Assembly: GCA_000182565.2 (NCBI GenBank)
Contig: KQ257450.1
Strand: one strand, 5' to 3'
Source: Spizellomyces punctatus DAOM BR117
Lineage: Eukaryota
Length of the DNA stretch: 64,000 bases
The translations under genes were made by a program, and so were the position numbers. Below, one piece after another: positions 3,230 through 29,177 of the stretch. The first letter of the stretch is position 1. Every line of letters starts with the position of its first letter. Under the pieces are notes generated by a model that saw only the letters and a list, made by a program, of their open reading frames with translations, was not told where the DNA came from and did no database searches.

Positions 3230-3244
3230 GTGGACGAAGTGGAT
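3230..3244 (-). promoter_or_regulatory. Cluster motif RTCCRC-NNC-RTCCRC (ATCCAC TTC GTCCAC) in the divergent P450/laccase promoter
   Basis: Exact match on the minus strand; the same motif is present in all six cluster promoters. Confidence 0.75.
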
Positions 3245-3443
3245 GAAACGAGTGCGGTGGACTTTCCCTTTGCATTTTCGAGTCGCGTTGCCGGACTCTA
3301 CTTAGGAAAGTCCTACCAGAAGCGACGAATGATACACAGCTGGATTTTGACTTGAGCAAACACTCCTTCAGACTACTCCTGCAATATAAATTTATCTGCA
3401 ATCCTCATATCCTTATCACCAGTAACCTCTTAAACCTCACGGC

Positions 3444-5699
3444 ATGATTTCATTGTGTAGTTACATCATTGTTTTCCTAGCGATCCATGTCTCATCCCTC
3501 ATTGCTATACCTCACGGCCGTATTCGCACCTTCCGTTGGAAAATTACGAATATCACAGACGCTCCTGATGGCATTCCTGTCTTTGCAATAGGCATCAATG
3601 GCAGGACAGGCGCCTCGACTGTAATTGGTGCGTGAATGTTCATGCGAGTTATGTTGAATGTTTTTTGAACCTGCTGGGATTGCTGGGGCGACTCAGACGT
3701 CAATCTTGGGGACCTCATCAAAGTGCATGTGACAAATGCACTGGACGTGCCAACAGCTTTGCACTGGCATGGCATCTTACAAGAAGGTAGGCCACCGATG
3801 GAAAGGCGTACATTTGACCCAAAATAAGGACTGATATCGCAAAGGTACGGTGGATATGGATGGGCCCGCTATGGTCACCCAATGTCCTATTCCGCCAGCT
3901 GGCACCTATACGTATACTTGGCGAGCAACTGAAGCAGGAACATTTTGGTGGCATGGCCATTACCGAGGACAATGTACGACCCCATTGTTGGTTGCTCGTT
4001 GAGTGAACAACCTGACACTTCTGTGCGCATTTTCAAGTATCCGACGGCCTTCGTGGTCCGATCATTGTGCGAGGAGCTGAGACTTTTAGTACGTCCAATG
4101 AACTTGCACTGGAAACGTTGCGAGTTCCCAAAACTGACCTGCTGGCTGCCGCAACCCCAAGATTACGATGAGGAGTATATTGTTTTCTTGGAAGACCATT
4201 TCTATAGGACATCCGAAGAAGAAATAGCCGACTACCTCGTAAGTGAACGCAAACTGCGAGAATGCACGTCCGTTCACCATCAAAAATTCACCAGATCCCA
4301 CGAGCCGTTGTGCCTCTTCCTGAGTCTGGTCTCTTGAACCGTAAAGGCTTTCCCCACGGCGGGTTGGATGGCGTCGGTGACCCCTCTAATCTTACTGACT
4401 TCATATTTCAACGGAAGAAGCGTTACCTCCTACGTATCATCAATGCCGCTGCCGTCGTACCTTTTGAGTTCTCCATCGACAAACACAGAATGACAGTTGT
4501 GCAAGCAGATGCCACCGATGTGACGAATATGACTGTGGACAGTATTTATATTGATATTGCACAACGATATTCCGTCATTGTGCATGCCGATCAACTTGTA
4601 GATCGATACTGGATGCGAGCTGTGAGTATTCAAATGCTTCCGCTCTCTCCTAGTCATCCCGGCTAACGATTTTGTAAATTGACCATCCGCCATTTTAATG
4701 AAAAGAAAATGCGTGAGTGAACATGTTAATCGAATTACTCGCGGAAATATGGAGTGCTGATGTCGAGTTTACAGCGGTGTCAAAGCAGAAGCGTTCAATA
4801 GAAGTTCTTGCGACTATCACCTACGATGGAGCGGATGGACGTCAGCGTCCAAGTACAAGTGCTAAGGAGAATCCAGTCACTCTACCGGAAAACGGTCTGG
4901 CGCTGAGCCCAATGGTTCCCCTGATGGCCCCACCCAAAGCCGATAAGACGTACGTCTTTGCGTGGGACTTTCATGCAGATGAAAGTGGGCGAGATGATAG
5001 CGAAGTCACTCGCGGATGGATCAGCGTGAACATAACTAGGCCACTGACTCGGAGTGACGGGCTGAGTTACGTGACGCCAAAACGACCAACTTTGTTCGAC
5101 GTGGTGGACGGAAAGGACCCGGACACCCTGCCCAAAGAAAGCGTTGTTTTCACAGCAGAGCCTCAAGAAGTGGTTGATATTGTGTTTATGAATAGAGAGT
5201 TTCGTATGTACCAATTTCCGAGGTTATTCTTTAGTCAAATGCTCGGGCCTGTATTAACGAGGATATCCATTGATATTTCGGGGTAGCACCTCATCCATTT
5301 CACCTCCACGGCCACACGGTATGGGTCCTCGGCTACGGCACGGCCAAGTCCTATGCGGAAATTCCCTTTGAGAACTTCAATTTGACAAATCCTCTGCGCC
5401 GCGACACCTTTAGCGTCCCATCTGGAACTTGGGATGGGCTCACTTTCGGGTGGACAGTGGTTCGCTTTGTTGCCAATAATCCCGGTGTGTGGTTCCTCCA
5501 CTGTCACTTAGAGTTCCACATCATAGCAGGGCTTGCAATGACTCTGGTTGAAGACGTGGCCGCTCTGAGAAGAATGGGAATATCGCCACAAAGCAGGCAA
5601 CTATGCAGAAGCTTTGAGGAATGGAGAGAAAAGAATGAACTTGGTGAGAAACTGGTTGACGCTACGGAAGAGGGAGATATGTTGGTCATGCAGCCATGA
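3444..5699 (+). CDS. Secreted multicopper oxidase (laccase-like), multi-exon
   Basis: Signal peptide and all four Cu-binding motifs: LHWHG, WWHGH, HPFHLHGH, HCHLEFH (Leu at the axial position). No Fet3-type C-terminal TM helix. Confidence 0.95.
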
Positions 5700-5860
5700 A
5701 TTAACGGAAGACGATGAAAGCCATATAACTTTGGGTTTAGAGTTGGGTGCATAAGCCTGTTCCACTACGTGGAGGAAGCACAGTGTTAATACTTGATGCA
5801 CCATACATTGGTAACACTTTCAGCCTATTTGGTTCGAAGCTGTAATATATTTTACAACTA

Positions 5861-7383
5861 TCATCCAAGTATCTTGGTGAATTTTACGAGTTCCGCATCC
5901 ATCACAAGTCTTTTCATTGGGAGGGCTGTTAGTCCGACCATCACTTCGATGCCTTGACGTCCGGGGGCAGCGGGAATAATTACAATTACTCCGTCGCCGA
6001 CTGTGGAACCAGGAGATACAAGAAAGGGACAATTTCCAGTACCGAAATGAAGCTTTTCTGCTTCATAAAATGGATACTTGCTCCACTGAGTAACCGCGAC
6101 GTCGTCACCAAAAACCTCTGTGTGGCTGGTACGAAGAAGCGGAAGCTCGGTTGCCGGGTCCAAGGAAAGGAGATAATCGACACTGGAACGAATTCGCTCA
6201 GGAGAATGTGCCCGAATCGCTTGGCGCAACATGAGCGCCGTGGTACCCAGCGGCTGAGTGAGAAGGTTGTCCACAGTATGCGATACACATAGGCCACTTC
6301 CAACATAATGAGCAATAACAGTTTGCCTGTAAGCACAAGAGGACTGCACCCTAGGTTTGAGAGAGGCACTTACGTTATAAAATTTCCAAAGTAGCCTTTG
6401 CTCTCGGGGGCCAGTGCCTTGATCCTCTCCCGCCCATTCACCGCCAAACCTAGTTTGGTTATACCATTTTGCTCAAGCTCGCGGGCCCTGCTAACCGCCC
6501 TCCAGAAAAGTGCTGCAACAGCATCGTTGGTAGACACCCAAGAGCCATCGTTGAGACCAAGATGGGCGTACTCTTTTAGATTTGCGAGAGCTTCGCTATC
6601 AAGGATAAACTGCTTGCCGTAAATGGGCTCTGGCTTGCGAGTCATTCCCGTATCCTCTTCTCCAGTACTCAACCGGTATTCATGGTTCACATAAGAGGGT
6701 GCAGGCTGGATGATTTCAACGAGATTGGCAAGGTCACGGACAAGGTGCTTCTGCTGAATGCATATCAAATCTTCCTGGACTTCCACTGACGTTTTACCGT
6801 GCAGCTCACTCCACCGATATATGAAATCGAGGAATGCCGGTAAGTCGGCAACATAATGGTGACGGCGGAATCCCACAGCTACTTTGCTTCCTGGGAACTA
6901 CGGAAACCAAGTGGTTACCTATGACCCACGAGAATGGATGTGAACATAACTCAGCTGGCTTACCAATGTTATTTGAACGGCCAAAACTGTCTCTCCAGAT
7001 TTAGGGAACGGTCCTCGAGGAAACAGGTTGGGAGGGATGGTTTCTGGTGCAAACTGACCTTCCACCATTGGCTGAAAATCCTCTTCAGAACCCTGTGCAT
7101 ATACGAGCGTTGCTCCTTTGTTGTTGAAAATGAGACGAGGTACAGCATCTTTTTCTTCAACAAGCTCAGCGGCCAGAGCAGGATATTCGCTTAGAGCGCG
7201 TTCCAAAGAGGACGAAATAGCGCCGTGGTCTGAGAAGCGTCCACTCGGGTCATCAAATAAAAGTAAGAGAGCTGCGTAGACTTTTGGAACGACCAAGTCC
7301 AGAGGAGTTAAATTGACTGACAAGCCCGGAGGCTTTATTTCAACGGATGGCCGAATGGTGGCCTCGGATATGATGCTGATCAT
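5861..7383 (-). CDS. CoA-dependent acyltransferase, transferase/BAHD (Tri101-like) family, 3 exons
   Basis: LTPLD N-terminal motif, LAVQIT, catalytic HxxxD (HYVAD), VSTNDAVAALFW, AVNGRER, YFGN, and a DFGWG-equivalent LHFGTG. Confidence 0.9.
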
Positions 7384-7536
7384 GCTTGTAGTGGTTCAGA
7401 GTTACTGCTCGGCCAAGAATCCCAAAATGCGGGATTGGAATACTAATATGTTTGCTTCAAGCATAAATAGTTCGTTTAAAACCCTGAAGACTTATGTCCT
7501 CTGATTGGAGCAAGCTTGGTACAGCGGACCGGATCG

Positions 7537-7560
7537 GTCCACCGCATCCACTCCATCCAA
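7537..7560 (+). promoter_or_regulatory. Cluster motif, triple copy (GTCCAC CGC ATCCAC TCC ATCCAA), in the divergent acyltransferase/MFS promoter
   Basis: Exact 15-bp match at 7537-7551 plus a third half-site at the same 9-bp period. Confidence 0.75.
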
Positions 7561-7669
7561 AGAGTTTTACGCCTCGGCGACCTAGGGCGCAATGCTCACG
7601 AATATATATGTCAGTATTGTGAATTACAAATTCGTTTCGCTGTTCAGAAATCCTCAATCCCTCGCAAAC

Positions 7670-9466
7670 ATGACCATCTTATCGCAGCAAGGCTGGTCAG
7701 AATCGCAGCTCGCTTCGGTTTCGCTGGCTATACGTAAGTGTGATCCCCATTCCTGCGTAGCAGCTGTGCCCTGACATTTTTTTGATATGCTGTGTACTTC
7801 ACCAGTTTCTGTCACCCAGTTTTTGGACTTCCTGAACTTATCCGCCCTCAACATCGCAATCCCTACGATCGCTGAAGAACTCAAGATTCCAGCCGGGCTC
7901 GAAGGATGGATCCTCATCTCATACTCTTTGGCGCTATCCGCCTTCATGCTGCCATTCGGAAAGCTGGGAGACGCTTGGGGCCACAGGAACATATTTATTT
8001 GCGGCTTGCTGATCATGACAATAGCGAATATCTTTAGTGCAATGGCACCGACCTTGCCAGTACTGGCCACATTTAGAGGGTTGCAGGGTTTGGGTGCCGC
8101 AGCAACAGTAAGTATCCTGCGCAGCCAGTAGTTATGCTACGCAGCTTAATAGTTTGTCTTGCTGAAGATGCCGAACGCTTCCGCTATTATCGCCCGGATA
8201 TTTCCAGCAGGCGCTCCGCGTAACGCAGCATTTGCAAAGTAAGGAACGATCTTTAACTTTGAAAATATGATCTAACATGTTAGCAACATATGCTAGACTG
8301 GGCGCTGCAAGTGCCATTGGCAGCGCCGCCGGGCTCATCGTTGGAGGTCTTTTTAGCGGGATAATTGGCTGGCGTTACGTCTTCTATGTATTAGCACCGA
8401 TTTGCCTCTTGGTGATGGTCCTGTCACTCCTGTTCCTGCCCGCCGCACAGGATGACGAGACAGTGGACAAAGGTTTGAAGGACTTTGACATTAGCGGGAC
8501 ATTGACCTGGTTGGTGGGCATGTCTCTCATCGTATATGGTGAATATTCCTACATGACTTTCTCTACACTTGCGTGATTGAGGCTAATAGTTTACGTCGTG
8601 CAGTGCTCTCGACTACCAAGGGGGCAGCTTGGAAAGAAGTTCAAACGATGGTACTTTTAGGCATCGGCGTCGCTAGTTTCAGCTCCTTCTTCTTCGTTGA
8701 ACGCAAAGCAGCCCGTCCACTCATTCCACCATACTTGTGGCAAAATCATGTTATTGTGGTGAACTCGATTCTCATCGCCATGGTACGCGGCGGAGCGTCC
8801 ATGTTTGTCTACCTCATGTCCCTCAAACTTCAGAGAATCCTGTTGCTTTCTCCTTGGGAAACGGCATTGCAAAGTTTACCAATGGCAATTGTCGGATTCT
8901 TCTACTCTTTCTTTGTCGGCACCATCGTGAAAAGGCTTGGATTCAGTGTACCTGTCATCCTCGGCTTCGGTATGGCGGCTTTCGGATCCGCCTACTTTTC
9001 GTTTTCCTTGCACGGTCCAGATGAAAATGGTAATAATGCCTCATCGTTTTGGACGTCTACCTTTCCGTCTAGTGTGGTCTTTGTCCTTGGAACTCCGATG
9101 GTGTTCATTTCAGCGCAGCTCGCGATGCTCCACGTCGTGGAACCTCGTCAATATGCGGTGGTTGGAGCACTGTTCAACACTGCCGGTCAGATCGGCGGAC
9201 CTGTGGCACTTGCACTTCTCACGGCAATTATGAATGCAGTACTGGTCAATAAGGAACGAAGTGGCTGGTCCGAGAAAGAACGGCTGCTGGCCAGTTATGA
9301 TGCGGGGAATTGGACAATTGTAGGATGGGAGTTGGTGGGGTTGGTCATCGCGGGACTGTTTTGGTTGCGCCAAAAATTCATTGAGGAAAAGCGGCATCTC
9401 TCTGTAGACGTGGAAAGTGACGAAGGGGAGAGGCAGCGACTCCTAGGAGATACCTCCAACCCATGA
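7670..9466 (+). CDS. MFS drug:H+ antiporter (DHA2-type), multi-exon
   Basis: QFLDFLNLSALNIAIPTI, motif A GKLGDAWGHR, FRGLQGLGAA, GWRYVF, and many hydrophobic helices. Confidence 0.92.
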
Positions 9467-9694
9467 CTCTATGATTTTGTTCGTATATCAGATTCATTGA
9501 GAACATCATGAAGAATGCAATGCTTCACTGTTCAGTCAAAGATAATTCTATGACCATCAAACCCTTCTCATCTGTGAGTTTCGGCAAACCGCATGAAAAC
9601 TGCGGAGTGATGACTTTCGACTTTTGCAGTCACATATAGGGCAAGTACTACGCAAACAACTTGAAAAATGTGTAAACTCTCCGCAGCATCCGCC

Positions 9695-9709
9695 GTCCAC
9701 TTCGTCCGC
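9695..9709 (+). promoter_or_regulatory. Cluster motif (GTCCAC TTC GTCCGC) upstream of the MDR reductase
   Basis: Exact match about 235 bp upstream of ATG 9945, with extra ATCCGC/ATCCAC half-sites on either side. Confidence 0.75.
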
Positions 9710-9944
9710 ATGGATCCACTATATACCGACGCCATCAAGATTGCCGGAACAAATCGCCTACATGGCTCATTAAACAACTGGAGAAGGTAGAAACATGTCC
9801 TTTATCTGTACGCGAGTCCAGCAATTTTCCCCGTCAAAAGCCGGATTGACTTTAAAGGCCCGTCTTTACGCACCGCGATTACTTGGTCATCAGACTTGTC
9901 TTATAGCCCAGCGGAACAGTATTACCTCTATATTGACGTTAAGG

Positions 9945-11161
9945 ATGACAGTCTCTACAATGCGAGCGTATCGATATGACAACACTGGGGGCCTTGACCA
10001 ACTTCGATTACGAGAGGTCCCCAAGCCAGTTCTGGAACCTGGAGAAGCTTTAGTGAAAGTAAAAGCCAGCGGAGTCAATCTGGTACGATCTGCGGTGACC
10101 TTGCAGAAACCAACTGTCATTGACGTTTACTTTGTGCAGTCCGACGTGGTTGGAATTTGCGGTTGGCTTCCATTCGTCACGACGCCCAGAGTACCAGGTC
10201 GAGACTACGCCGGAATAGTGGAGGCGGTACGAGATCAGCATGACGACCACTGGATTGGCAGCGAGGTGTGGGGGACCGGGGGTAATGTAGGTTTTACCGT
10301 TGACGGATCATGGGCAGAGTAAGTGGGTTATGAAAGGAAAAACGCTATAACATCCTCGGTAATCTCTTTGGTCCCTCAACCCTCTGAAGGTATATCAAGG
10401 TACCTGTGAAGGCTTTGAGTAAAAAGCCGACCAACCTCTCATTTGCTGCAGGGGCAACGGTCGGTTTGCCTTGGCTATGCGCCGATCAGGCAGTGAACAC
10501 CCTGGCGAGTGTTCGTAAGGACGATGCCGTACTCATCATTGGCGCCCGCGGTGCAATTGGGTCCGCCGCTGTCCAACTATGTCGATCTATCGGCGTACAA
10601 GAGCTATACGGCACATTTTCCAGCAAGCCATCGGAATCCCCTGGCTTGAAGGCTATCGATCTGAGTGCTGCAGATGGGTCCAACATCGGTGCATATGCCG
10701 ATCTTTTAAAACGAACGGTAAAAAAAGTCAACGTTGTCATCGATGCATACGGGTCAGACTTCGACGCCCATCTACTCAACGCCTCCCTCGACGTCCTGAC
10801 GCCAGGTGGACGAGTGGTTGTGATGGCCGTGCACAGCAAGGTCAGTTTTTCCACGTTTCCAAATCTCAATGCTAGTCTTATTCTCTGAGTACAGTCAGGA
10901 GTATCGTGTCTCAATCTCCGCAAGTTTTATGCCAAGAGCCTCGTTTTATATGGATTAAGTTCGGGACAAGTGACTCAGGAAATGGGAGCACGGTTGCTCG
11001 ATAGACTTGCGCCTGGATTTGAGACTGGAATTTTCAGCAACGAGAGTAAGCCTATGGCTCTGGTAAGGTTTTCCGATGAACAAAAGGTACACGATGGTCT
11101 CAAGGCCGTGTATGAAAAGACGGGAAAGGAAAAATACGTAGTGACATTCGATAGTGAGTAG
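9945..11161 (+). CDS. Medium-chain dehydrogenase/reductase (quinone-oxidoreductase/enoyl-reductase type), 4 exons
   Basis: LVKVKASGVNL/SD, PRVPGRDYAG, GSWAEY, and Rossmann motif IIGARGAIGSAAVQ. No Zn-ligand GHE motif. Confidence 0.9.
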
Positions 11162-11702
11162 TACCAGATGGAGGGGAAAGGCTTGTGTTATACTCATCAA
11201 CAACCATCTCATGGACGTGGTTAATGGTCGAGAGCAAAAGATCATTCGTATGAATGCTGAACTAGTTTTTTTACCACTAAAATACTGCCCATTCACATAA
11301 GTGGGTCCTGAGAGGTTGATTTGGGGTTGAGAGCTACCAGACTCCTTTGGGTCGCTCCAGTCGACAGCAGGATACTTTTGGTACGGTTATCATGAGAAAA
11401 GTTCACACAGTTGTAATCCTCAATTTGGTTGCCAAGAATCAGTCGTCTCGCCTGGGGCAAGCAAGTCGCAGCATCCAACCGTGTGACTGGAGGTATTAGC
11501 GTAAGGCTAAGTGATAACCCGCTTTCCCATTAAGCTCAGGAAGTCGGATGATCCACCACCACCACCACGTAGTCGTACATGACGCTGCTCAACAAGCTGA
11601 GGTGTTTGCCATTTGCATGCAACTACAAATCTATGTGTCCATCATCGCCAAGCGTATATTTAAAGCAGGTCCATTTTTTTGGCCCTATACCAATAATATC
11701 AT

Positions 11703-13115
11703 CTAGATCGGGATAGCCTCCACGATACTAATCGCACTCCTGTTTTCATGCACATCCACAATCCGGAATCCCGCGTCGTAAAACAACTTCTTAAACTGCT
11801 CCTCTGTTCTTTGCAGAGAGTTCACTAGGGTCAGCATGTTGACATCTACCATGTGCTTGACACGGTTGGAGGTAGCGGTCATTACAAACTCGGCGGCGAA
11901 GAAACGACCGTCTTCAGAGATGGCTTGGCGAATGTGGCGAAGGATTCGTAGACAGTCAACATCGCTCCAATTGTGGAGGCACTGCTTAATCAAGAAATGT
12001 CGGTGTCGACCACTTTGAGGCTGGAAGAAGTCATGAGGAGTAAAAGTTACGCGAGAACACAGTTCGGCGTCTTCTTTCGCCCAAAACTGCAGGAAAAGAG
12101 GAGACGGCAGTTTAGCTTTAATGGTAAAATCACAATTAAGCTGTGAACTAACAAGCAAACCAACCTTTTTAGCGTCATCAATGACGCTTGGAAGATCCTG
12201 AAGTTCGAAAGTGAGATTTGGCCATCGTTTGCACAGGGCAAGATCAACTGCTCCAACCCCACAGCCAATATCCACTAGCGTGGCCTTCTCGCCGAGAATA
12301 GACCAATCAAAGTCTTCGACAATCCCGTCTTGCAAACCATTACTGTAATTCGACATCGCACCGTTCACGCGTGTCGATAAAGCAGCATTTTCCGGCTGAT
12401 GAATCCAGTCATAAAAGCTCTTTCCCATTTCCAGTTCCCACGGAGCTTTACTTGCATTGGCAAGCCGAATAGCTTCAGCAAGCCGGTTGGCACCACGGTA
12501 ACTATCATGGCCCCTACGGCAGTGAATTGTCAGAAAGTACGACAGCTTAAAATTGACAGATATCATTTCTCCTACCAGTGAAGCACAAAATCTCTCATGC
12601 TTTTAGGATGGTCCGTCCTTAAGGACGACGAAATGGCATTGTTGGTAAACTTTTCACCATTTTGGATAAAGACGGAGCGGTTGGCAAGCAGTGAGAGGAT
12701 TTGTCCTTAACCGACGAGTATTAGTACACAATAATCATGATATTGAGATCCGACGAACGAACTCACGCAATTTCCTCGGATCAGCATCTACCAGTTTAGC
12801 AATTTCATCAATTGACAACTCCGAATCTTTAAGCGCATCCGCAATGCCGAGGTCTGCCGCTGCTGTCAATGCTTTTGACTCTAAGCAGCTGCCCACAATC
12901 AAGGTAAGTACGTCCTGTGGCGGAGCAAGCATGCTTGTCAACTTGTCGACGCCATCCCAACAAGACTGGAGAGCCTTGCGTGAATCGATATTCACGGCAT
13001 TGTGGTTGCGCTTCAAGTCTGACACACTCGTTTTAATGTTTTGCAGAGTAGAAATCAATTTATCGATTTCTGAAAGTACGCTTGCAGGCTCCGCGGCAGG
13101 AATTTCGATGGTCAT
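11703..13115 (-). CDS. SAM-dependent O-methyltransferase (Methyltransf_2 type with dimerisation domain), multi-exon
   Basis: ADLGIADAL...SIDEIAK dimerisation region, LVDIGCGVG, LQDLPSVI, HDFFQPQ, KQCLHNWSD, RTEEQF. Confidence 0.93.
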
Positions 13116-13248
13116 AATGGAAAATAGTTTTTCTCCTTACGGGAGTTGGGATGTGATAATGGGTTTAAATATTTCAAGGCTGAGTTTATAAAGGAGCTCA
13201 AGGCTCCTTCGAGTGGACACGGTAGGTTGACCCGCGTCAATCCGAGCG

Positions 13249-13263
13249 ATCCGCCTCGTCCAC
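13249..13263 (+). promoter_or_regulatory. Cluster motif (ATCCGC CTC GTCCAC) upstream of the O-methyltransferase
   Basis: Exact match about 135 bp upstream of the minus-strand ATG at 13115. Confidence 0.75.
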
Positions 13264-13578
13264 AGGAGATCGCAGCACTCGTCACACACAAAAGTTTAGA
13301 AAGGGCGGAGCATTTCGTGCAGCTACTGCTCACTGATCACTTGTCCTTGCACAGGCCTGCGGCACCAGAAAAGGAATATCCCGGCTTCTAATGCTCCGAG
13401 ATCATGAACACAGCCATGCTGAGCATTGAGGTTTCTTACAAGGAATGCACTGTATATGCAAAAATAAGCCTGTGTTTTGTACAAATGCCTCTTTCACATA
13501 CAGTTTGCAGGTAATGCTATACTTGCATATACAGATACTTTTATGACGTCAATAGATTTGAGCTCGTAGGCATGACAG

Positions 13579-15004
13579 CTACAAGCAGAGGTGATGATGC
13601 TCTACATATCCGATACCCCACTCTGCGGAATCTGTCACCCTATCGTCTACAATGGAATGGCCATTCAGATCAACTTTAATACGGGTGGTCCCACCGGTAT
13701 GCTGACATTCTGATGAGATCCTATACTGCGCCGGGAGATGGTAGTAACCTTTCTCTCCGCAGATGTCATACTTCAACAGGTAACTCGTTAATGCTGAATC
13801 ACCCTGTCGATTTTGAATAAGGGAGACGTCTGCTGGGTTCCACAAGCTAAAGAGAGGATCGTGATGGTGGGCAAAATATGCAGCAAGGACCGAGTCTACA
13901 GACATCAAAGTCATTTTAGGATTGTAGATCGCTGTTGAGGTCGCATTGCTTGCGCACGTACCTTGACCATCAGGGGACGTGGACATTATAGCATTGAGAG
14001 TGATATTCCAGCTATGTGCGCGCAATATCGACCTGCATTTCAAGTTCCGGCAGTGTGATGAGAGACAATCCTGAGATTGCCACAATATGGAAATATTCGC
14101 ATCAAACTCACCATTTGTAGTCTTTATTTACCGGAATAATTTGACCCCACCGATGACTCTGCAAAAGCAGTACGAGGATTATTGATCAGTATATACCCAC
14201 CGGTTTCTAACTTTCAGAAACGAAACTCTAATGCGTCGGCACGTACGTGAAAGCCGACATTTTGAATTGTCCACCTTTCGCCATCCGCGAACTCTACCCA
14301 TCCGTCGACGTGAGCACGAGGGATCGGGACAATGAAATTGAAAAATGGGAAGACGCTAACCGAAGAGTCGTATTGCCGAGGAATGAATGGCATGGAAATC
14401 ATACTTTCAGATATCAAAGATGTTAGACACATCCCGCAATCGACAGTTGTTGTGCCTCCACACATTTTAAACCCAGGGCTTACTTTTCGTAAGTCAATCT
14501 AGCTCTAAAACCTTCGATAGCAATTTCCAGCTCGTAGTATTTCATATCCGGCGTCCAGGAAAATTTGTTAGATCCCATTGTGAGCGAGTGATTTCCTTGT
14601 TCGCGGTACACTGATGTCGACTTCACGCTCTTTGTCCAGTGAGTTCCATTGGGTAGAGTATACTCTACGACGAAGACAGGATCGTACCCTCCGTGCGCAG
14701 GGTCGTTCAAATACCAGTTGAAGAAGAACTCGGTGTTGTTTTGCAACAGCACCACATCGAAATGCCATGATTCGAAGGCACCTTCACCAAAATGTCGTAA
14801 GCGCGGTGCATCAAAAGATCCATTTAATGCCAACGGAGGGAATCTCTGACAACTGCGGTAGGGAAGATCGAAGGCTGTCAAATGTGGGTCATCAACGAAA
14901 ACATGTGAAGCGAGATTCGTTATGGGGGTTTGTTGGATGAGCGATGGTGTCGGTGCGCCTTGGACGCCGCACAATAAGGCACAGAAAAGGACTATGAGGA
15001 TCAT
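13579..15004 (-). CDS. Secreted Diels-Alderase/AttH (lipocalin-like double beta-barrel) family protein, multi-exon
   Basis: Signal peptide MILIVLFCALLCGVQG; FDAP...ESWHFD (cf. DAP...EWWYFD); PIPRAHV; GFH/SHRWG across an intron (cf. GYHDHNWG); C-terminal GIGYVE. Confidence 0.65.
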
Positions 15005-15097
15005 TTGGGTGATGAAAGCTTCAAATGATGATGGCAAGAGGGCAGTACGAACGCTCACTCATAAAAGAGCAAATAGAACTGGGCTTGCAACTGCCCT

Positions 15098-15145
15098 ATC
15101 CACATCGTCCACCAGGACCAAAACGCGCCTGTCCGCTACGTCCAA
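15098..15145 (+). promoter_or_regulatory. Two cluster motifs (ATCCAC ATC GTCCAC at 15098; GTCCGC TAC GTCCAA at 15131) in the divergent DAase/AsnB promoter
   Basis: One exact copy and one copy with a single mismatch. Confidence 0.75.
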
Positions 15146-15293
15146 ACTGTTGCTCTGCCATCCATTGCGAGAATGAATTTTATATTCTGCGGCATATTTG
15201 TACAGCTCCGCTTGTCGCAAAGTATTTCAGTGCCGGGTGCTTGATATCTCATTTGCTTTCTTACTCGAAACTCGCAAGACACTCTCCTTAGCG

Positions 15294-17970
15294 ATGTGTG
15301 GGATCACTGCCTTTGTTGATACGGGGGGCCGCCAGAGAGTCTCCCCTGCACAGTTAGAGTCCGCTCTCGATCTCATCCATCATCGCGGACCAGACTCGAA
15401 GGGGACATTCATTACTCCGGATAGGCGAGTCGGTAAGATAATGGACAGAATGCGGTGGATTTATGACCTTGTTGTACTCTCTAACGCAAAAGAACATAGG
15501 TCTCGGGCATAATCGTCTCGCCATCATGGGTTTGGCAACAGGACAACAGCCAATTTCAAACGAAACTGGTGATATCCATGTTGTAGTGAATGGAGAGCTG
15601 TACGGATTTGAGGCAATTCGTTCTCAATTGCACGCTGACGGCCATGTGTTCAAAACCGAAAGTGATAGCGAGATTGTAGTTCACTTGTACATATTCCTTT
15701 TCAGCTTTCAGATCACTACTGGCAAAACTAATACAATTTATATTCAGATATGAGGACCTTGGCCTGTCGTTTCTCGAGCGCCTCCGCGGCGAGTTTGCAC
15801 TCTGTCTCTGGGACAGCCGAAGGGGACTTTTCATAGCCGCCCGGGACAGGTTCGGCATCAAACCATTGTACTATAGCGTAATCAACGGAGCACTTGTCTT
15901 AGCCAGCGAAATGAAAGCATTCCTTGCTCTGGGATGGAAACCCGAATGGGATATCGAAAGCATTGTGCACGGCGGTTCCTCCTTTGATAACAGAACCGTA
16001 TTCAAAGGTGTTAGCAAGGTTTGGTCGAGTGCCTGCTCACATTGCATGGAGGTACACTCATCTTCTCGTATGCATTAGCTGCCCGCTGGAAAATATATGA
16101 CTGCGACACTCTCCGGCAGCGTCGATATCCAAACGTACTGGGATGCAGCCTACCCAGACAAGCGTGTACCAGATGTACGTAATCTAGAAGATATGATCCA
16201 AGGCGTTCGTGAACGCCTTTTCGAAGCTATCAGAGTGCGAATGCGATCGGACGTGCCTTTGGCGATCTACTTGAGCGGAGGCATAGATAGCGCTGCTATC
16301 GCAGGAATCGCGATGGCTATTCTAAGGGAGACTGACGCTAAAGCGAGTATTGATGCTTTTACCATCGCATTTCCTGGTAAAGGTATAGTTTTCCTACTCA
16401 TGTACGACTTTACTCTGGCCTGAATTTTTGCACGGGTAGGAGCTGAACAGTTCGACGAAGGACCTATTGCGGAACGCATGGCAAGACACATCGGTGCCAC
16501 ATTCCATAAGATTCCCATCACAGAGGATGACCTGGTTGCTGGATTTGAAGATGCAATATGGCATTTCGAGCACCCGATGCCAGATCTGAACGCGATCGGA
16601 AAATACCTACTGTCCAAAGAAGTCCGAGACCGCAAGTTTAAGGTGCTGTGCTAGGTTTCAATTCACTGTTGGTCGGCCTCTGTCCAATATCTGATATTGC
16701 TCAATCGCATTGTCATCATAGGTCGTGCTCACCGGTGAGGGGGCTGACGAACATTTCGCTGGATATGCTTTCTTTCTGGCGGATTACCTTCGCGAACCTG
16801 ATGTGGCGGTTGAAAATCCTTTGTCGGATGTCCAGCGAGAGGCTAAATTAAGGGAAATTGAAGGAGTGACGGGCGGATCCTATGATACAGTTCTAGTCTC
16901 AAAAATGTCATACAACGACGCTTCGGTTGGACGGCAAATGCTTAATGGAATAAGCAGCCATCGTCAACTGGCAGGGGCAGCCCAAATCCCCCAAGATATA
17001 TTTCAAAAATCGCTTATAGAGAAAACTGGTGCTCCTGATGCGTGTACCGCCCTTGCGGTAGGATTGAGTGGAATAGCTAGGGAGAATGCAAGAACGAAGG
17101 TAATGTGTATTCGTTGGTGTATTTATCTCCGAGTCATAAATTCAAGCTTGCCGTCTACTCCCCTTCTACCATCAGTGGCACCCTCTGCATACGGCTTTGG
17201 TGAGTTTCTAATGCTTGGTGCTCATTATCCCCTATAGGTATTTACTCGTTTCATCAGTATGCGGAAAGTAGGACGTTTCTGGGGAACGTATTGTGTAATG
17301 TCTTGGGAGATCGTAGCGAAATGGCTCATTCTGTTGAGGGGCGCACTCCTTTCCTCGACCATCACCTATGCGCATATGTAAACAACCTTCCACCGTGAGT
17401 ATTGTCGCCGAGGTTTTCTTATTAATTATTCTAGCAGTTAGAACAACTTAACTATGTTCGCAGCTCCGTGAAGATACGTGCGTCTCAAACAGGTGAATTG
17501 ACTGAAAAATGGATATTGCGGGAAGCAGCAAAGCCCTATATTTCGGAAGAAATTTACAATAGGCGTAAACATCCCTATTTGGCACCTGTGTCAAACCTCG
17601 CCGAATCTCCCGTCGGTGTTCTTCTCAGGCAACGTATCACAAAGGAAGCTATCGACAGGCTAGGGTGGGCTCGATGGGAGGTGGTGGAGCAATTGAAGGA
17701 ATCGTTTGAAACGACGGGGTCAACTATGGCCTTACGCACATTGCTGGTCATGTTGTCATTCGTTGTGATGAGCGAAAGGTTTAACGTGAAGATCTATGAA
17801 GACAGCTCGACAGAACTTGTCACCAACTTTAAGCAAGAGTCTAATGATAGTACCAGGGATGTGGAATCCTGCCCTGGAAGTAATCCACCGCTCTTTCAAG
17901 TAGAGACGAAGCTTCCTGACGAAGATGTATCAATGATTTCTGGATGGAGATTCTATGTTCTAATTTTCAT
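15294..17970 (+). CDS. Asparagine synthetase (glutamine-hydrolysing, AsnB)-like amidotransferase; N-terminal part of a probable AsnB-MFS fusion
   Basis: N-terminal nucleophile MCGI, HRGPD, LGHNRLAI, NGELY, SDSE, ARDRFGIKPLYY, PP-loop SGGIDS, TGEGADE, DRSEMAHSVEGRTPFLD, EKWILREA. The frame runs on into the first MFS TM helix. Confidence 0.92.
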
Positions 17971-19882
17971 GTAGTGTCTGTCCTGCGATGTGTTTTTTCA
18001 AAGGCAGGCATCTCACATAGACTTTCTCCTCATATAGGTTGGGAATGGTTGTTTTCCTTGCGGCCCTTGACCAGGTGTGTAGTGTGTTCTTGGAAATGAT
18101 TTGACTCTGATTGGTGCCATATCATAAGTAACCCTTCCACTCTCATGAAAGACCATAGTTGCCCCAGCGGTGGTCAAAATCGCCGATGAATTCAATGCTA
18201 GTTCACAGCTGTCATTGATTGGCACCGCATATCTGTTGACATCGGTTAGCGTTCAACGAGAGATTGAGTACAAGTATCAACAATTTCTGATTTACGTATC
18301 ACCCCACTTAGACATGCGTTGCCCCACTCTACGGAAAGCTGTCTGACATCTTTGGCCGGAAATACACCATTATCGCGGCAGTCTTACTGTTTTCGATTGG
18401 ATCCTTGCTATGTGGAGCATCAAACGGAATGGCGCTACTTACCGTTGGACGTGCAGTCGCCGGCTTGGGTAATTTTCGATTTGTTTCAGACAAATAGAGC
18501 AAATAGCTTACTTTCGACTGTAGGAGGCGGAGGACTAATCAGTCTCGTACTCATCATCATCGCCGATATCGTTGCAATTGGTGAACGCGCCAAATACCAA
18601 GGGCTTATGGGAGGGGTTTTTGGTCTAGCTGCTGTCGTTGGTCCGCTGGTCGGAGGTGCATTTACTGATCACTGGAGCTGGAGGTGGTGCTTCTATATCA
18701 ATCTTCCAATATGCGCTGTCGCCGCTACGGCGATATTCTTTCTTTTGCGAACTCGATCCGGAGAACCAGGGAGCGTACAGCGAAAGCTGCGGCGGCTTGA
18801 CTACATCGGCACGACCTTGATCATTGTCGGTTGTGTTTGCTTGCTGTTGCCTCTGCAGTTCGCTGGTGAACGATGGAAGTGGGACAGCCCACAAACCATT
18901 ATCCTCCTGATTCTAGGCGCGGTGTTTGCTGTCGCATTTGGATGGTCGGTCACCAAAGTCTCTGAGCCGATCCTCTCACCTCAACTTTTCAAGAACCGGA
19001 CCGCCGTTGCCCTTCTGGCTACATCCTTCTGCCTTGGTGTATCTTTCTATGCAGAAGTATTTTACACCCCGTAAGTGGCTCTTGTAGTTCCCTTCTATAT
19101 CTATCGATGCCACTCCCATTGACATTTTCGCTCTTAGAATCTACTTCCAGGTTGTTGATGGTGCCTCCTCCACTGCCGCAGGATTACAGACAATCCCTTT
19201 GATTATGGGCGTTGTTTTCATGAGCGTCTTGTCAGGTACAGTCAAAACAGCTAAAGCCTGAAACATTGATGTAGCTGACCTTGTATTGTTTTTACATGCA
19301 GGCCACCTCATTGCCAAAACAAACGTCTACCTCATTTATCCATTTATTGGTTCGGTCCTTTCTAGCATTGGGCTTGGCTTGATGTCCACTCTCAATGCAG
19401 ACTCTAAGACGTGGCAGCGAATCATTTATCTGCTCATCGCGGGATTGGGAAGTGGCAGTATTGTTCAAACAGCTGTGGTCGGCATACAGCACAGTGTGAG
19501 TCCCGACCTCATTGCAGTGGCCACCAGTGCCAACACTTTTGTCCAAATTCTTGGAGGGTAAGTTCTAAATGTCATATGCCAGATCGGTATTTCCGCGAGC
19601 GTAACTCAAGGTATTTTCCTGCTCTTCAGTGTATTTGGCATAGCCATGTCTGGTGCAGTTTACAACAACGTTCTCAATCATTGCCTCTTATCCGATGCTC
19701 CTTCCGTGGACGCTGCCAAATTGCAGTCTGCCAACGATCTTATACAGACGTTACCGGACAACGTCAGGCATGCGGTTGAAGCATGCTTCACAACGAGCCT
19801 TCAGAAGACTTTCCTATCATTAGTGCCATTTGCGGCACTTATCTTTGTCTTCATGCTGTTCACAAAGGGAAGGAAATTTTAG
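17934..19882 (+). CDS. MFS drug:H+ antiporter (DHA2, 14-TMS); C-terminal part of a probable AsnB-MFS fusion
   Basis: Spliced reading WRFYVLIFM/LGMVVFLAALDQ/TIVAPAV...AYLLTS/TCVAPLYGKLSDIFGRK...GRAVAGLGGGG...SWRWCFYINLP; stop at 19880-19882. Confidence 0.9.
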
Positions 19883-19930
19883 AGTGCTTAGGGACACTGG
19901 GTCAAACTTTGAAAGCTTGAGCATGTAGCG

Positions 19931-20117
19931 TTAGGGTTTCTAAATCTCGCCATCTGTGTATTATACGATATATCTATGCAATATGATGTCTTGCGGTAGT
20001 TGTGGCCTGGCTTCAGGGTGTTGATTAGGGTTAGCGCTCCGGATCTCGCCATCTGTGTATTATATGATATATCTATGCAATATGATGTCTTGCGGTAGTT
20101 ATAGCTGGCTTCCAGGG
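19931..20117. repeat. Tandem direct repeat (about 99-bp period, 2 copies) in the convergent 3' intergenic region
   Basis: ATCTCGCCATCTGTGTATTATAYGATATATCTATGCAATATGATGTCTTGCGGTAGTT at 19944 and 20043; each copy is preceded by TTAGGGTT. Confidence 0.9.
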
Positions 20118-20257
20118 AGATCCCATTCCTCAACACATCGCGGAATAATGCAAAGTGGATTTCAAAGCCCTAGGAAAGTTCGAGCCTAGCATATGTATTG
20201 CAAGTCATAGCGACAAATTTGTCTAAAGAATCATAGAAGTCCTGAACTGTCCTAAAT

Positions 20258-22922
20258 CTACAAGGTCTCTGTGCTCGCTGAGAGTAACAAAAGGTGGTAG
20301 CCAAAGGTTGAAAATAACAGCAGGAGAATTATCAAAGGAAGGGTGTAAGCAAGGTTGCGTGCAATTGCCCGATGATAACGACCTGCTTCTGTAATGGTGC
20401 TTTGTGATGCAGCTGATTGCACTCCTTCCCTAATGGGCATCCGACTAGTGATAGCAACGTTGCATTCGTCGAAGGTTTGAAGAATGATAGTTATTTTCGC
20501 TTTCTGGAGGGTGTCGTCCGTCGTGGAAAGCGTTAATGAGATCTTTCCATCGATATCGTTCGAGATGAAAATGTCGGTGCAAGTAGCAGAGGTTTTGGTG
20601 CTTGTAACCCCTTGCGCTAGATCCTCCGATGCAGAAGAGTCGGCGTATGATTTTCCATGTTCTGTGGACAGCTTCTTCTGCCTCCTGGTACTATCGACGG
20701 AAGAGACAGAGTTTGTGGGCTCTTTGTACCTTGTGGAGTCGTTTGGATGTGTGGTGCCGCAAGATGCTCTGTCTTTACTGGTATCGACGGAAGAGACAGA
20801 GTTTGTGGGCTCTTTGTAGTTTGTGGAATCGTTTGGATGTGTGATGTCGCAAGATGCTCTGTCTTTACGCGTAGTTGGAGAAGACTTCTTTTTACTAGCA
20901 TCGTCGGATGTTTTATGAGCTTCCGTAGTCTGCGGTTTCTTGCCTTGTCTCTCTTGCGGGGAATGACTTTCTTCTTCAAAAAAGCCTGGGAGAATTACAC
21001 GTTTGCCAGCGCGGATTCTATCCTCTGTAACTACAGCCAAGTGTCTCGGTCGTTCCAAAAACATGTGCTGCGGAACAAACAGATGCATTGCATCATAGGA
21101 GGTTCCCAACTTATGAGAGAAGGCGATAAGTTTGCGATGTTCTTCATTCATGAATCGGAGGCCGTTACTATTGAACGATTGGGTGAGAGGATCACCATCT
21201 TCAGTAATATCGGACGCATTCAACGGGAAAGGATAGTTGGAATGCTGGGCAAAAAACGTGGTGATGACATCGTTGAAATTGCAGGACAGGATTTGACTCA
21301 CGGCCTTCTTATTGTTCTGGCAATCGCAGTCGTCGTGTAGTCGGGACCACGGACCCTCTCCAGTCACGCCGGAGACTAACTCGGAATTTCCTCCGTCGAG
21401 AGAGTTTGCGATAATACAAATGTGCGGTTCATCGAGACAAGGATCAAAGTTGGTTGCCGATTGAATATCTATAGTCTCCACGTGCTTGACGGTAAAAGTG
21501 ATCTCGTTGCCGATTATGTAGCGACGCAGGACATCTTCATCTGCATCATCTCCCGGCGGTGCCAAGGCTGTCGTGGGATGAGGCTCGATGCGAAAGTAAT
21601 TTGCGTGGTATCCTGAATATTGGCAGTAGGCAATCAATTCAATGCTACTAACTAGATAACACCAAACCACTTACATACCTTGAGGACAAAAGCGATAAAC
21701 TAACAAAAATGTAGGAATATCCCTCATGACCCAGGCGTGCCTGATTGCAGGTATAGTCAAAAAGGTTGGAACGGCCGCAATTCCACGAGCTGACACACGC
21801 ACGGTCTCGCGAACCGCTCTATAAAATATAGAAGTACAAACATTACCAGCAGAACCTTGTATGCAGCAAAAGTGTTACGAAGCACTACCTTTCAACGCTT
21901 CGAGGCATTCCCATTGCCCCACATAACTTCTCCATGAAACTGCACGAAAGACGCGAGACCCATATCTGCATCATGGAGATCTCGTCGTTTATGAGGCGGG
22001 GTCCGTCCTTGCGCACCCTGTACGTACATCTGGCTGGGGTGTGCACGCAGCGGCAGATCAGCTCTTCCCCGTCGCGAAGGACGTGGGCATCGAAGGCACG
22101 CTGTTGCGAGACGCGATATATGAAGGCTTCTGCATCCGGTCGGTGCAAACATGTTTTGAAGCGGGAAAGAAAATTCGCGTAGACCAGAAAGCGAACGACA
22201 GTGCGGAAGTTCTTTACATCCCAGATGGGATGTCCTTCGCTCGAAATTGCTTTAACCCGACCGCCGTTGCCCGAATGCCTGATCTGAGGTGAGCCGGGCG
22301 GCGTAGGAAGCTGATGGTTGGGAGAAATCGGGACAGCAAGATCGAAGCTGCCACTTGCACGGGCCTTGGTCGAGTGAATAGTGTTTTCCGTGAAAAGGAG
22401 ACTGTCATAGCTCTCAGGGTCAACCCATGTGGTAAACCATTCCGATAGACCGACTTTCCGATAGAAGGCGTTGAGGGTTTCTTCCTTCCTGCTCAACCCA
22501 TTGATTTTCTCGACGGGGGTATTTTCATCACAAAGTTTTCGGTGTACTTCCATAGCTTTCGTCACCATGGCTTCCAGCTTTCTCTTGGTCAGATTGAATG
22601 CCTCCAGCGTTTGATCAGGATGTTTTCTGTACTCCCCAACTATCTCCATGAGCAGCATGGGGCGAATCTGGCATGCACAATCTCCAACGTGAGCATCAAA
22701 ATCGAGGAAGCCATCCCATGAGTACGAATTGTTCTTGATATCAGTGCTATGGCGACTCGACTCTCCGATGACTTTTGCAGGAAACAAGAGATTTTCGAAG
22801 CTCTCCAGCGCATGAAGGGCGTCTCTCGCTCCGCGGATAATCCGTCTAAGGTGGAACGGATACAGCCTCTGCAAGAGAGGTTTCTCGCGAGCAGATTCAT
22901 CGTCAAAAAGAAGAGTCGCCAT
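20258..22922 (-). CDS. Uncharacterised 842-aa cluster protein with a C-terminal hydrophobic anchor, 3 exons
   Basis: ORFs 21885-22922 and 20258-21670 join in frame through GT-AG introns 21819-21888 and 21613-21678 (2529 nt CDS). Head-to-head with the NRPS-like gene. Confidence 0.8.
20692..20868. repeat. In-frame 90-bp tandem duplication (30 aa) inside the unknown gene
   Basis: KDRASC(D/G)(I/T)THPNDST(N/R)YKEPTNSVSSVD occurs twice. Confidence 0.92.
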
Positions 22923-23095
22923 TACGAAAGTCAGTTAGAACCGCGATAACACACAGTGGAACACATATTCCCGCCGGACTCATTTATTAAGAGGACATGA
23001 TGGTAAGGCCTGCCTGCGGACTGTTCTATCCGCCTGTTGCGGGTGGCAGTGCTCTGTTTTCTGTTGTACATCGGATGATGGGAGCATTCCTCCGA

Positions 23096-23110
23096 GTCCA
23101 CCACGTCCGC
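23096..23110 (+). promoter_or_regulatory. Cluster motif (GTCCAC CAC GTCCGC) in the divergent unknown-gene/NRPS-like promoter
   Basis: Exact match, centred in the 416-bp intergenic region. Confidence 0.75.
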
Positions 23111-26300: not shown

Positions 26301-26361
26301 ACTATACGTAGGACACTTTCAAAAAATTTTTAAAGATAGCTTGGCTAAAGCTGGTCTTTAA
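23339..26361 (+). CDS. NRPS-like A-T-TE quinone synthetase (atromentin/polyporic-acid synthetase type), 959 aa, 3 exons
   Basis: A domain LTSGSTGMPK, NWVGFDHVA, SGGEAN, GFGMTETCAG, WFKTGD, KTSLGK; T domain FFERGGSSL; TE HPGVGEVLIFVNLAKYF, GYSYGG, NIPPHI, HYTLM. Introns at 25240-25323 and 25802-25860. Confidence 0.96.
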
Positions 26362-29031: not shown

Positions 29032-29046
29032 GTGGACGGAGTGGAC
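29032..29046 (-). promoter_or_regulatory. Cluster motif (GTCCAC TCC GTCCAC) in the divergent Zn-finger/phosphate-carrier promoter
   Basis: Exact match about 130 bp upstream of ATG 29178. Confidence 0.6.
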
Positions 29047-29177
29047 CGGAACAGATTAGCGCCATCCGCTTCTGCTTTTTAATCGACGGCCCCATTCCTC
29101 CTCGAGTGACAATTCCCTTTTGTTGACTTTTTTATTTTATTCCAAAACCTCTTACAAACCGGTTACCTATTTTAGAC

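What the first reader, a model, noticed from the sequence alone, without database searches (positions are those of the whole stretch)
3230..23110. Shared 15-bp direct-repeat motif RTCCRC-NNC-RTCCRC in all six cluster promoters
Seen: ATCCACTTCGTCCAC (3230-3244, minus), GTCCACCGCATCCAC plus a third unit (7537-7560), GTCCACTTCGTCCGC (9695), ATCCGCCTCGTCCAC (13249), ATCCACATCGTCCAC (15098, plus a near copy at 15131) and GTCCACCACGTCCGC (23096). These six sites serve all ten genes. With 9 fixed and 4 two-fold positions, about 0.03 hits are expected by chance in 64 kb on both strands under uniform composition (the motif was derived post hoc). Inference: binding site of an unidentified pathway regulator with a 9-bp tandem period, unlike classic CGG-triplet Zn2Cys6 sites. 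It independently defines cluster membership, including the unknown and Diels-Alderase-like genes.
Basis: seen in the sequence. Interest (0 to 1): 0.8.

Follow-up and report, generated by a model that had tools for sequence, protein, structure and literature searches.

The report
Shared switch in chytrid metabolite cluster
A short tandem DNA signal sits in front of every gene of a natural-product gene cluster in a chytrid fungus, most likely the landing site of one shared regulator, and a neighbouring zinc-finger gene of no known family is the best candidate for that regulator.

Summary
Confirmed and extended. All six sites are at the stated coordinates, and a seventh exact site (29032-29046, minus) was missed. 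A blind motif finder recovers the motif from the six 5' regions at 24.3 bits; 0 of 1,400 control sets reach it (maximum 22.5). Genome-wide there are 52 matches in 24.1 Mb: 7 here, never more than 2 per 30 kb elsewhere, and many of the rest look coding. The sites lie 92-250 bp from ten predicted start codons, in either orientation, in a chytrid cluster built around an A-T-TE NRPS-like synthetase. On the other strand the motif is YGG-N6-YGG, which is Hap1 geometry, but 11 of 14 half-sites are TGG and no Zn2Cys6 gene lies in the window. The seventh site lies between a single-copy Cys/His zinc-finger gene without a Pfam match (754 bp) and a phosphate-carrier paralogue (131 bp). The zinc-finger orthologue is three locus tags from a cluster gene in Geranomyces. 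Shared regulator site: about 0.9. Binder is this zinc finger: about 0.45. Binding, co-expression and motif conservation were not testable. No earlier scan note on other DNA was found.

The parts
3230..3244 (-). Site 1, between divergent P450 and laccase; an extra in-register half-site lies 18 bp away (3257-3262)
7537..7560 (+). Site 2 plus third unit (7555-7560), between divergent acyltransferase and MFS1
9679..9719 (+). Site 3 (9695-9709) with a near dyad at 9679-9693 and a half-site at 9714-9719, directly before a TATATA; upstream of the Zn-type oxidoreductase
13240..13263 (+). Site 4 (13249-13263) with an in-register near unit at 13240-13245; serves only the O-methyltransferase and points away from it
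15098..15145 (+). Site 5 (15098-15112) and one-mismatch copy (15131-15145), between divergent Diels-Alderase-like and amidotransferase genes
23096..23110 (+). Site 6, between divergent unknown gene and NRPS-like synthetase
29032..29046 (-).
1502..3102 (-). Cytochrome P450 (3' end approximate)
   Evidence: Pfam p450 E 7e-9; start predicted
3487..5699 (+). Multicopper oxidase (laccase-like)
   Evidence: Pfam Cu-oxidase, Cu-oxidase_2
5861..7383 (-). Transferase-family acyltransferase
   Evidence: Pfam PF02458 in three ORFs
7670..9466 (+). MFS transporter 1
   Evidence: Pfam MFS_1
9960..11160 (+). Zn-ADH-superfamily oxidoreductase (3' end approximate)
   Evidence: Pfam ADH_N, ADH_zinc_N
11703..13115 (-). 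O-methyltransferase
   Evidence: Pfam Methyltransf_2, Dimerisation
13579..15004 (-). Protein with a hydrophobic N-terminus and a weak Diels-Alderase N-domain match
   Evidence: Pfam DA_N E 0.0097, below cut-off
15294..19882 (+). Asparagine-synthetase-like amidotransferase running in frame into a second MFS (probable fusion); no motif in front of the MFS part
20258..22922 (-). Single-copy unknown gene; Geranomyces orthologues 51-53% identical in the first exon
23339..26361 (+). Non-reducing NRPS-like synthetase (A-T-TE); the only match to its TE exon in the genome search
26717..28277 (-). Candidate regulator: single-copy, four-exon gene with a conserved N-terminal Cys/His domain (up to three zinc sites), a variable Ser/Pro-rich middle and a conserved C-terminal domain; homology at 28191-28286, 27922-28050, 27753-27857, 27542-27700 and 26741-27142
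29178..30375 (+). Mitochondrial phosphate-carrier-like gene, one of two copies found (3' end approximate); possible target of site 7

Best explanation
The motif is the recognition site of one pathway-specific transcription factor that co-ordinates a chytrid natural-product cluster. Two protein units bind head-to-tail to RTCCRC half-sites 9 bp apart (other strand GYGGAYG-NN-GYGGAY). One dyad lies 92-250 bp upstream of each predicted start codon and works in either orientation, so one dyad serves both genes of a divergent pair; extra half-sites may raise occupancy. The likeliest binder is the product of the adjacent orphan Cys/His zinc-finger gene (26717-28277), possibly autoregulated through site 7. 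SHOWN: the sites, their enrichment, spacing and position; gene identities by Pfam; single copy and neighbouring locus tag of the zinc-finger orthologue in Geranomyces. INFERRED: protein binding, activation rather than repression, dimer binding, the binder's identity, autoregulation, and a terphenylquinone- or furanone-type product. Odds: shared regulator site about 0.9; the full statement with this zinc finger as binder about 0.45.
For: 7 of 7 window hits lie in 5' intergenic regions, which make up 3,229 of 27,677 bases (P about 3e-7). Blind recovery beats 1,400 of 1,400 control sets, and no second motif remains after masking (18.6 bits). At most 2 matches per 30 kb elsewhere; a relaxed pattern is not enriched genome-wide (184 vs 181 control). 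Site 7 was not used to derive the motif; chance of one within 6 kb is about 0.011. 0 of 18 Zn2Cys6 and 0 of 81 C2H2 Pfam matches fall in the window. The zinc-finger orthologue HDU87_006669 and the unknown gene's orthologue HDU87_006666 of Geranomyces variabilis have accessions three apart, each on one contig of 145,563 bp. The N-terminal Cys/His region is the best-conserved part and its last finger has the 12-residue C-to-H spacing of a classical finger (seen in alignment A1).
Against: Site 7 is 754 bp from the zinc-finger ATG but 131 bp from the carrier ATG, and only the latter fits the 92-250 bp range. The protein matches no Pfam family. Its best solved-structure sequence match is a ubiquitin-binding finger (WRNIP1 UBZ, E 0.24-0.56, not significant). 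The Geranomyces gene model P0009 lacks 16 residues that include three putative ligands, either a mis-spliced model or real loss. Synteny rests on one species and on tag numbers, and the neighbour could be conserved independently of the cluster. 45 matches lie outside the cluster, against 17 for the reversed control genome-wide; at least one (L014) looks intergenic. Start codons are my predictions except where homology supports them.
Confidence: 0.45

Rival explanations
1. Same cis-element, but the binder is a Zn2Cys6 factor encoded elsewhere that dimerises head-to-tail like Hap1 and tolerates TGG.
For: YGG-N6-YGG equals the Hap1 spacing CGG-N6-CGG (PMC10954478 passage); at least 18 Zn2Cys6 domains in the genome; an ascomycete A-T-TE cluster carries a C6 factor (PMC12105029 passage).
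Against: TGG in 11 of 14 half-sites and no CGG-CGG site; Zn2Cys6 proteins hydrogen-bond to the first cytosine of CGG (PMC6265462 passage); none lies in the window.
Confidence: 0.17
2. Same cis-element, read by a classical multi-finger C2H2 protein encoded elsewhere as five G-led triplets, GYG-GAY-GNN-GYG-GAY.
For: The reverse strand parses into five triplets that each start with G, which would explain the invariant ninth base (the Arg-G recognition code is recalled). 81 C2H2 matches in the genome, several in arrays.
Against: Third units and off-register half-sites at sites 1-5 fit a repeated small unit better than one 15-bp reader. No C2H2 match in the window. I did not compute recognition codes for the arrays.
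Confidence: 0.15
3. A site for another factor or in another sense: a repressor, a broad nutrient or stress regulator, or the unknown gene at 20.3-22.9 kb; or a factor related to the unknown binder of the basidiomycete atromentin-cluster motif.
For: Site 7 sits at typical distance from a phosphate-carrier paralogue. The half-site shares GGACG/CGTCC with the atromentin-cluster palindrome GGACGTCC (bioRxiv 10.1101/2020.03.25.008516); only 6 of 256 8-bp palindromes share a 5-mer with the consensus. A Geranomyces orthologue of the unknown gene has a sub-threshold HTH_50 hit (E 0.0096).
Against: No genome-wide enrichment expected of a broad regulon. GGACGTCC occurs 0 times in the window and there are no inverted dyads. 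The 6-of-256 figure is post hoc.
Confidence: 0.16
4. Not regulatory: chance, a coding by-product, or remnants of a small repeat.
For: The pattern arises readily in coding DNA (peptides such as V-D-x-V-D or S-T-x-S-T); 28 of 45 outside hits score as coding in a rough model. The motif was first derived post hoc.
Against: None of the 7 sites lies in a Pfam-supported exon; flanks are not conserved between sites; no long repeat links them; blind recovery exceeds all 1,400 controls.
Confidence: 0.07

Closest known systems
Cluster-specific promoter motifs of fungal biosynthetic clusters (CASSIS 'islands of sites'; PMC4824125, abstract seen)
   Same: One motif concentrated in the promoters of contiguous genes around an anchor synthetase and usable to draw the cluster borders.
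   Different: Here in a chytrid, a lineage described as poor in secondary metabolites (PMC7466969 passage); sequence not found in print by my searches; no Zn2Cys6 or classical C2H2 gene in the cluster.
Hap1-type Zn2Cys6 direct-repeat site CGG-N6-CGG (PMC10954478 passage)
   Same: Direct repeat, 9-bp period, GG core, implying an asymmetric head-to-tail dimer.
   Different: TGG dominates (11 of 14); the half-site is a longer hexamer GYGGAY with an invariant G after the first copy.
Tandem palindromic motif (GGACGTCC) of basidiomycete atromentin clusters (bioRxiv 10.1101/2020.03.25.008516)
   Same: Conserved motif about 90-130 bp upstream of an A-T-TE synthetase clustered with an ADH-type gene, near a TATA box, binder unknown; shares the GGACG/CGTCC pentamer.
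   Different: Palindromic and 22 bp wide, not a direct repeat; absent from this window; described for synthetase and aminotransferase promoters only; no candidate pathway regulator in those clusters apart from one Brf1-like gene in Serpula.
Non-reducing NRPS-like (A-T-TE) terphenylquinone/furanone clusters, e.g. alf, tdi, atromentin (PMC12105029, PMC10316625 passages)
   Same: A-T-TE core with a reductase/dehydrogenase and an O-methyltransferase.
   Different: Adds P450, laccase, acyltransferase, amidotransferase-MFS fusion, Diels-Alderase-like and unknown genes; no aminotransferase or C6 factor seen; product unknown.
Castor/CASZ1-like and CxC4-transposon-associated interleaved zinc fingers (H-aromatic-H-C motif; resemblance recalled)
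   Same: The candidate has an HWHC core; one Atlas structure row pointed to a CxC4-containing cluster (TM 0.49, under the bar).
   Different: No Pfam, PDB or profile support; a lead only.

Membership tests
Cluster-specific cis-motif (CASSIS-type island) | Enriched in promoters of contiguous genes around an anchor enzyme | tested here: met
   7 of 7 window hits in 5' regions from 3.2 to 29.0 kb
Cluster-specific cis-motif (CASSIS-type island) | Not common in front of unrelated genes | tested here: met
   45 outside matches in 24.07 Mb, at most 2 per 30 kb, 28 of 45 coding-like. No gene annotation was available, so a promoter-only count was not made.
Cluster-specific cis-motif (CASSIS-type island) | Conserved in orthologous promoters | not testable with these tools
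   Orthologues exist but no DNA was retrievable; two metagenome scans found none
Cluster-specific cis-motif (CASSIS-type island) | Co-expression of the genes; protein binding; effect of mutation | not testable with these tools
   No RNA holder listed; bench work needed
Hap1-type Zn2Cys6 site | Direct repeat with 6-bp spacer between triplets | tested here: met
   YGG-N6-YGG in 7 of 7
Hap1-type Zn2Cys6 site | Two CGG triplets | tested here: not met
   CGG in 3 of 14 half-sites, 0 of 7 sites with two
Hap1-type Zn2Cys6 site | Zn2Cys6 gene in the cluster | tested here: not met
   0 of 18 genome matches in the window (lower-bound search)
Atromentin-cluster tandem palindromic motif | GGACGTCC palindrome in tandem | tested here: not met
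   0 copies in 64 kb
Atromentin-cluster tandem palindromic motif | GGACG/CGTCC core | tested here: inconclusive
   Present in 6 of 7 sites; 6 of 256 palindromes would share a 5-mer, post hoc
Non-reducing NRPS-like synthetase (A-T-TE) | A, T and TE domains without C or R domain | tested here: met
   AMP-binding E 4e-45, PP-binding E 0.008 (ORF ends inside it), Thioesterase E 5e-26
Non-reducing NRPS-like synthetase (A-T-TE) | Val at position 1 of the specificity code (alpha-keto acid activation; PMC10316625) | tested here: inconclusive
   A4 region reads DHVA and aligns with DHVG of McyG; not aligned to GrsA numbering, so the code was not read
Non-reducing NRPS-like synthetase (A-T-TE) | Quinone versus furanone product | not testable with these tools
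   Needs expression and chemistry
Known DNA-binding zinc-finger families (candidate regulator) | Match to a described family or fold | tested here: not met
   0 Pfam families at E<=10; PDB sequence hits E>=0.24; models at pLDDT 36 and 42 are uninformative
Known DNA-binding zinc-finger families (candidate regulator) | Conserved Cys/His ligands across orthologues | tested here: met
   Conserved in P0008 and the window's exons; partly in P0009
UBZ ubiquitin-binding finger (candidate regulator, finger 1) | Significant match; Asp after the His-Leu (role recalled) | tested here: not met
   E 0.24-0.56; His in place of Asp

The most novel reading that the evidence does not exclude
The adjacent orphan protein is a pathway-specific transcription factor with a new, Spizellomycetales-restricted three-site Cys/His zinc-finger DNA-binding domain that binds GYGGAY direct repeats head-to-tail. 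Chytrids would then have built cluster-plus-regulator architecture with a factor outside the known Dikarya families, and the shared GGACG core would give a first lead to the unknown binder of mushroom atromentin-cluster promoters (that last link alone about 0.07).
Probability: 0.4. Interest if true: 0.78.

Novelty: new variant of a known kind. Interest (0 to 1): 0.58.

Why it matters
Chytrids are regarded as poor in secondary metabolism, and my searches listed no paper on a regulated chytrid cluster. A clean 7-site motif gives a ready test substrate: it fixes cluster borders, assigns two uncharacterised genes to the pathway, and names one gene whose overexpression might switch the cluster on and reveal its product. 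If that gene is the binder, it is a DNA-binding domain of no described family with its target site already in hand. Without that, this is a well-supported new example of a familiar principle.

Tried and rejected
Expression: no RNA holder listed. Laying X1, X2, X5 and X7 on 9600-29550 gave low-depth contigs without joints and, for X7, mostly partial matches (322 of 371), so no evidence either way. Orthologous DNA: two metagenome scans found no relative (292 and 51 candidate stretches, none confirmed). The prokaryote-genome scan with the A domain returned only generic adenylating enzymes at 24-39% identity in the 80 loci kept of 138; no statement on gene origin follows. Folding the zinc-finger region failed (pLDDT 36 and 42); Foldseek on the second model had no match at E<=0.001. 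Atlas searches gave leads only (first feature scores 0.88 and 0.90, unnamed clusters). A region search found no relatives beyond P0006 and P0008 among 26 candidates. The coding classifier is rough: 10% false positives and 83% sensitivity on its own training data, and it scores 2 of the 7 cluster sites just over the threshold. I looked at ORFs around 18 of the 45 outside loci, with the output cut; no pathway-related target was recognised, and the rest were judged only by local peptide. Rejected: inverted or everted dyads and other spacers; a dispersed repeat; identity with the atromentin palindrome; a one-mismatch copy at 28250-28264 inside zinc-finger exon 1 (coding, taken as chance). No complex prediction was run, since it cannot score DNA.


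Full report
OBSERVATION. The six sites are present exactly as described, and a seventh exact site, GTCCACTCCGTCCAC, lies at 29032-29046 on the minus strand. One search left position 9 free and all seven hits still carry C there. Shuffles give 0.05 matches per window. The genome (G000, 24.13 Mb, 38 contigs; the window is the start of contig C1) has 52 matches against 17 for the reversed control. The 45 outside matches give 0.12 per 64 kb, so P(>=7) is about 6e-11, and no 30-kb stretch outside holds more than 2. Many outside hits read as coding (V-D-x-V-D, S-T-x-S-T); a rough model scores 28 of 45 as coding, but also 2 of the 7 cluster sites marginally. A related one-mismatch pattern is not enriched genome-wide (184 vs 181).

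POST-HOC CONTROL. A blind 15-bp motif finder run on the six 5' regions returned exactly the six sites at 24.3 bits. Controls reached at most 22.1 (400 random genomic sets), 20.9 (500 Markov resamples) and 22.5 (500 ORF-poor window sets). After masking half-sites the best motif fell to 18.6 bits. Only spacer 3 in direct orientation is enriched, and flanks are not conserved. Site 7 is an out-of-sample hit, with a chance of about 0.011 within 6 kb.

SETTING. A protein identical to one window exon is labelled Spizellomyces punctatus SPPG_00012 by its source, and close relatives are from Spizellomyces, Geranomyces and Phlyctochytrium, so this is a chytrid. Pfam gives, in order: P450, multicopper oxidase, Transferase-family acyltransferase, MFS, Zn-type oxidoreductase, O-methyltransferase, a weak Diels-Alderase-like gene, an asparagine-synthetase-like amidotransferase running in frame into a second MFS (GT at 17971, AG ending at 18037), an unknown gene, and an A-T-TE NRPS-like synthetase. 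Its A domain is closest in the PDB to McyG and has DHVA in the A4 region. Val there marks alpha-keto-acid activation according to PMC10316625 (passages), but I did not read the full code. A terphenylquinone- or furanone-type core, then reduced, methylated, acylated, oxidised, amidated and exported, is inference. All seven sites lie in 5' intergenic regions (3,229 of 27,677 bases; P about 3e-7), 92-250 bp from ten predicted ATGs, in both orientations; site 4 points away from the only gene it can serve. No exact or one-mismatch site precedes the second MFS, which fits the fusion. Sites 1-5 have extra half-sites, in register at sites 1, 2 and 4.

CANDIDATE BINDER. No Zn2Cys6 (0 of 18) or classical C2H2 (0 of 81) match lies in the window (both lower-bound searches). 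Directly after the synthetase is a single-copy four-exon gene (26717-28277, minus). The database model P0006 starts inside the first finger; the P. arcticum orthologue P0008 matches all four exons, including an upstream one. The conserved N-terminal region has C-x2-C-x11-H-x4-H, then C-x2-C-x4-C-x9-H, then C-x-C-x12-H-x3-C, followed by a variable Ser/Pro-rich middle and a conserved C-terminal domain. A search of 1.84 billion representatives found 4 relatives, all from these chytrids. In G. variabilis its orthologue HDU87_006669 is three tags from HDU87_006666, the orthologue of the cluster's unknown gene; both are recorded on one contig of 145,563 bp, so I infer the same contig. Against this reading: no Pfam or fold support; the only PDB echo is a ubiquitin-binding finger at E 0.24-0.56; P0009 lacks 16 residues of the domain; and site 7 is 754 bp from this gene's ATG but 131 bp from a phosphate-carrier gene, which has a 73% identical paralogue on C21. 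Site 7 may therefore mark the carrier, the zinc finger, or both.

MECHANISM AND RIVALS. Most likely one pathway factor binds as a head-to-tail pair on hexamer half-sites 9 bp apart and activates nearby promoters in either direction (site about 0.9; this zinc finger as binder about 0.45). Rivals: a distant Hap1-like Zn2Cys6 factor (0.17), since the other strand is YGG-N6-YGG and Hap1 binds CGG-N6-CGG (PMC10954478, passage), although 11 of 14 half-sites are TGG and these proteins contact the first cytosine (PMC6265462, passage); a multi-finger C2H2 protein reading GYG-GAY-GNN-GYG-GAY (0.15; recognition code recalled); another factor or a repressor (0.16); no function (0.07).

COMPARISON. It works like the cluster-specific motif islands used by CASSIS (PMC4824125, abstract only) and meets the two features I could test. 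It is not a classical CGG Zn2Cys6 site. The nearest thematic parallel is the tandem palindrome GGACGTCC upstream of basidiomycete atromentin synthetases, whose binder is unknown (bioRxiv 10.1101/2020.03.25.008516; parts 1 and 3 of 6 and passages read; logo figure and supplements not available, and the 2018 paper that defined the motif was not seen, so degenerate forms closer to this motif cannot be excluded). The two share GGACG/CGTCC, which 6 of 256 palindromes would (post hoc), but the palindrome is absent here: a lead, not membership. The alf cluster has a C6 factor (PMC12105029, passages). Chytrids are described as poor in secondary metabolites (PMC7466969, passages).

NOVELTY. Searches for the cluster, for direct-repeat cluster motifs and for the motif strings listed nothing on it; I saw listings only, and the library lacks most subscription papers. 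The scan's notes held nothing by words or sequence; one note on this stretch concerns the amidotransferase-MFS fusion. Expression and motif conservation could not be tested.

VERDICT. A real, strongly non-random, cluster-defining cis-element in a chytrid, with a seventh site and a specific but unproven candidate regulator of no known family. New variant of a known kind; interest 0.58, about 0.78 if the orphan zinc finger is the binder.

Noticed in passing
window 15294-19882 (+): The amidotransferase's last exon stays open into the first MFS exon with a GT/AG intron at 17971-18037, suggesting an enzyme-transporter fusion; an in-frame ATG near 17933 leaves a separate MFS start possible.
   Followed up: partly
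window 26717-28277 (-): The database model P0006 starts inside the first zinc finger; homology with P0008 supports an additional upstream exon and a start at 28277, with a TATA-like element about 58 bp before it. The C-terminal domain looks ubiquitin-like by eye (recalled, not tested).
   Followed up: partly
window 20258-22922 (-): The unknown gene has about 240 extra C-terminal residues relative to Geranomyces orthologues, with a 90-nt tandem duplication (20692-20871) and a hydrophobic tail. A His/Asp/Cys motif (HVGD-x-AC) is shared with a distant Collybiopsis protein and may be catalytic or metal-binding.
   Followed up: partly
window 19944-20117: Two 75-nt copies, 89% identical, 99 bp apart, in the convergent 3' region between the second MFS and the unknown gene.
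   Followed up: no
window 29178-30375 (+) and G000:C21:28684-29007: The mitochondrial phosphate-carrier-like gene next to the cluster has a second copy on C21 (73% identity); which copy is the housekeeping one is open.
   Followed up: partly
window 1-60: The cluster begins about 1.5 kb from the start of contig C1, whose first bases hold CCCTAA-like hexamers; possibly a subtelomeric position.
   Followed up: no
window 51000-53980 (+): Ankyrin-repeat gene with a C-terminal coiled coil, resembling fungal Swi4/Mbp1/Swi6 cell-cycle factors (family name recalled; Pfam shows ankyrin repeats only); no motif upstream.
   Followed up: no
L014 (G000:C3:130533): One outside match lies in an apparently intergenic, pyrimidine-rich stretch between an acetyl-CoA-carboxylase-like gene and another gene (recognised by eye).
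   Followed up: no
L018 and L019 (G000:C3:1227723, 1265235): Identical match and context 37.5 kb apart, with identical C2H2 hits nearby: a segmental duplication or an assembly repeat.
   Followed up: no
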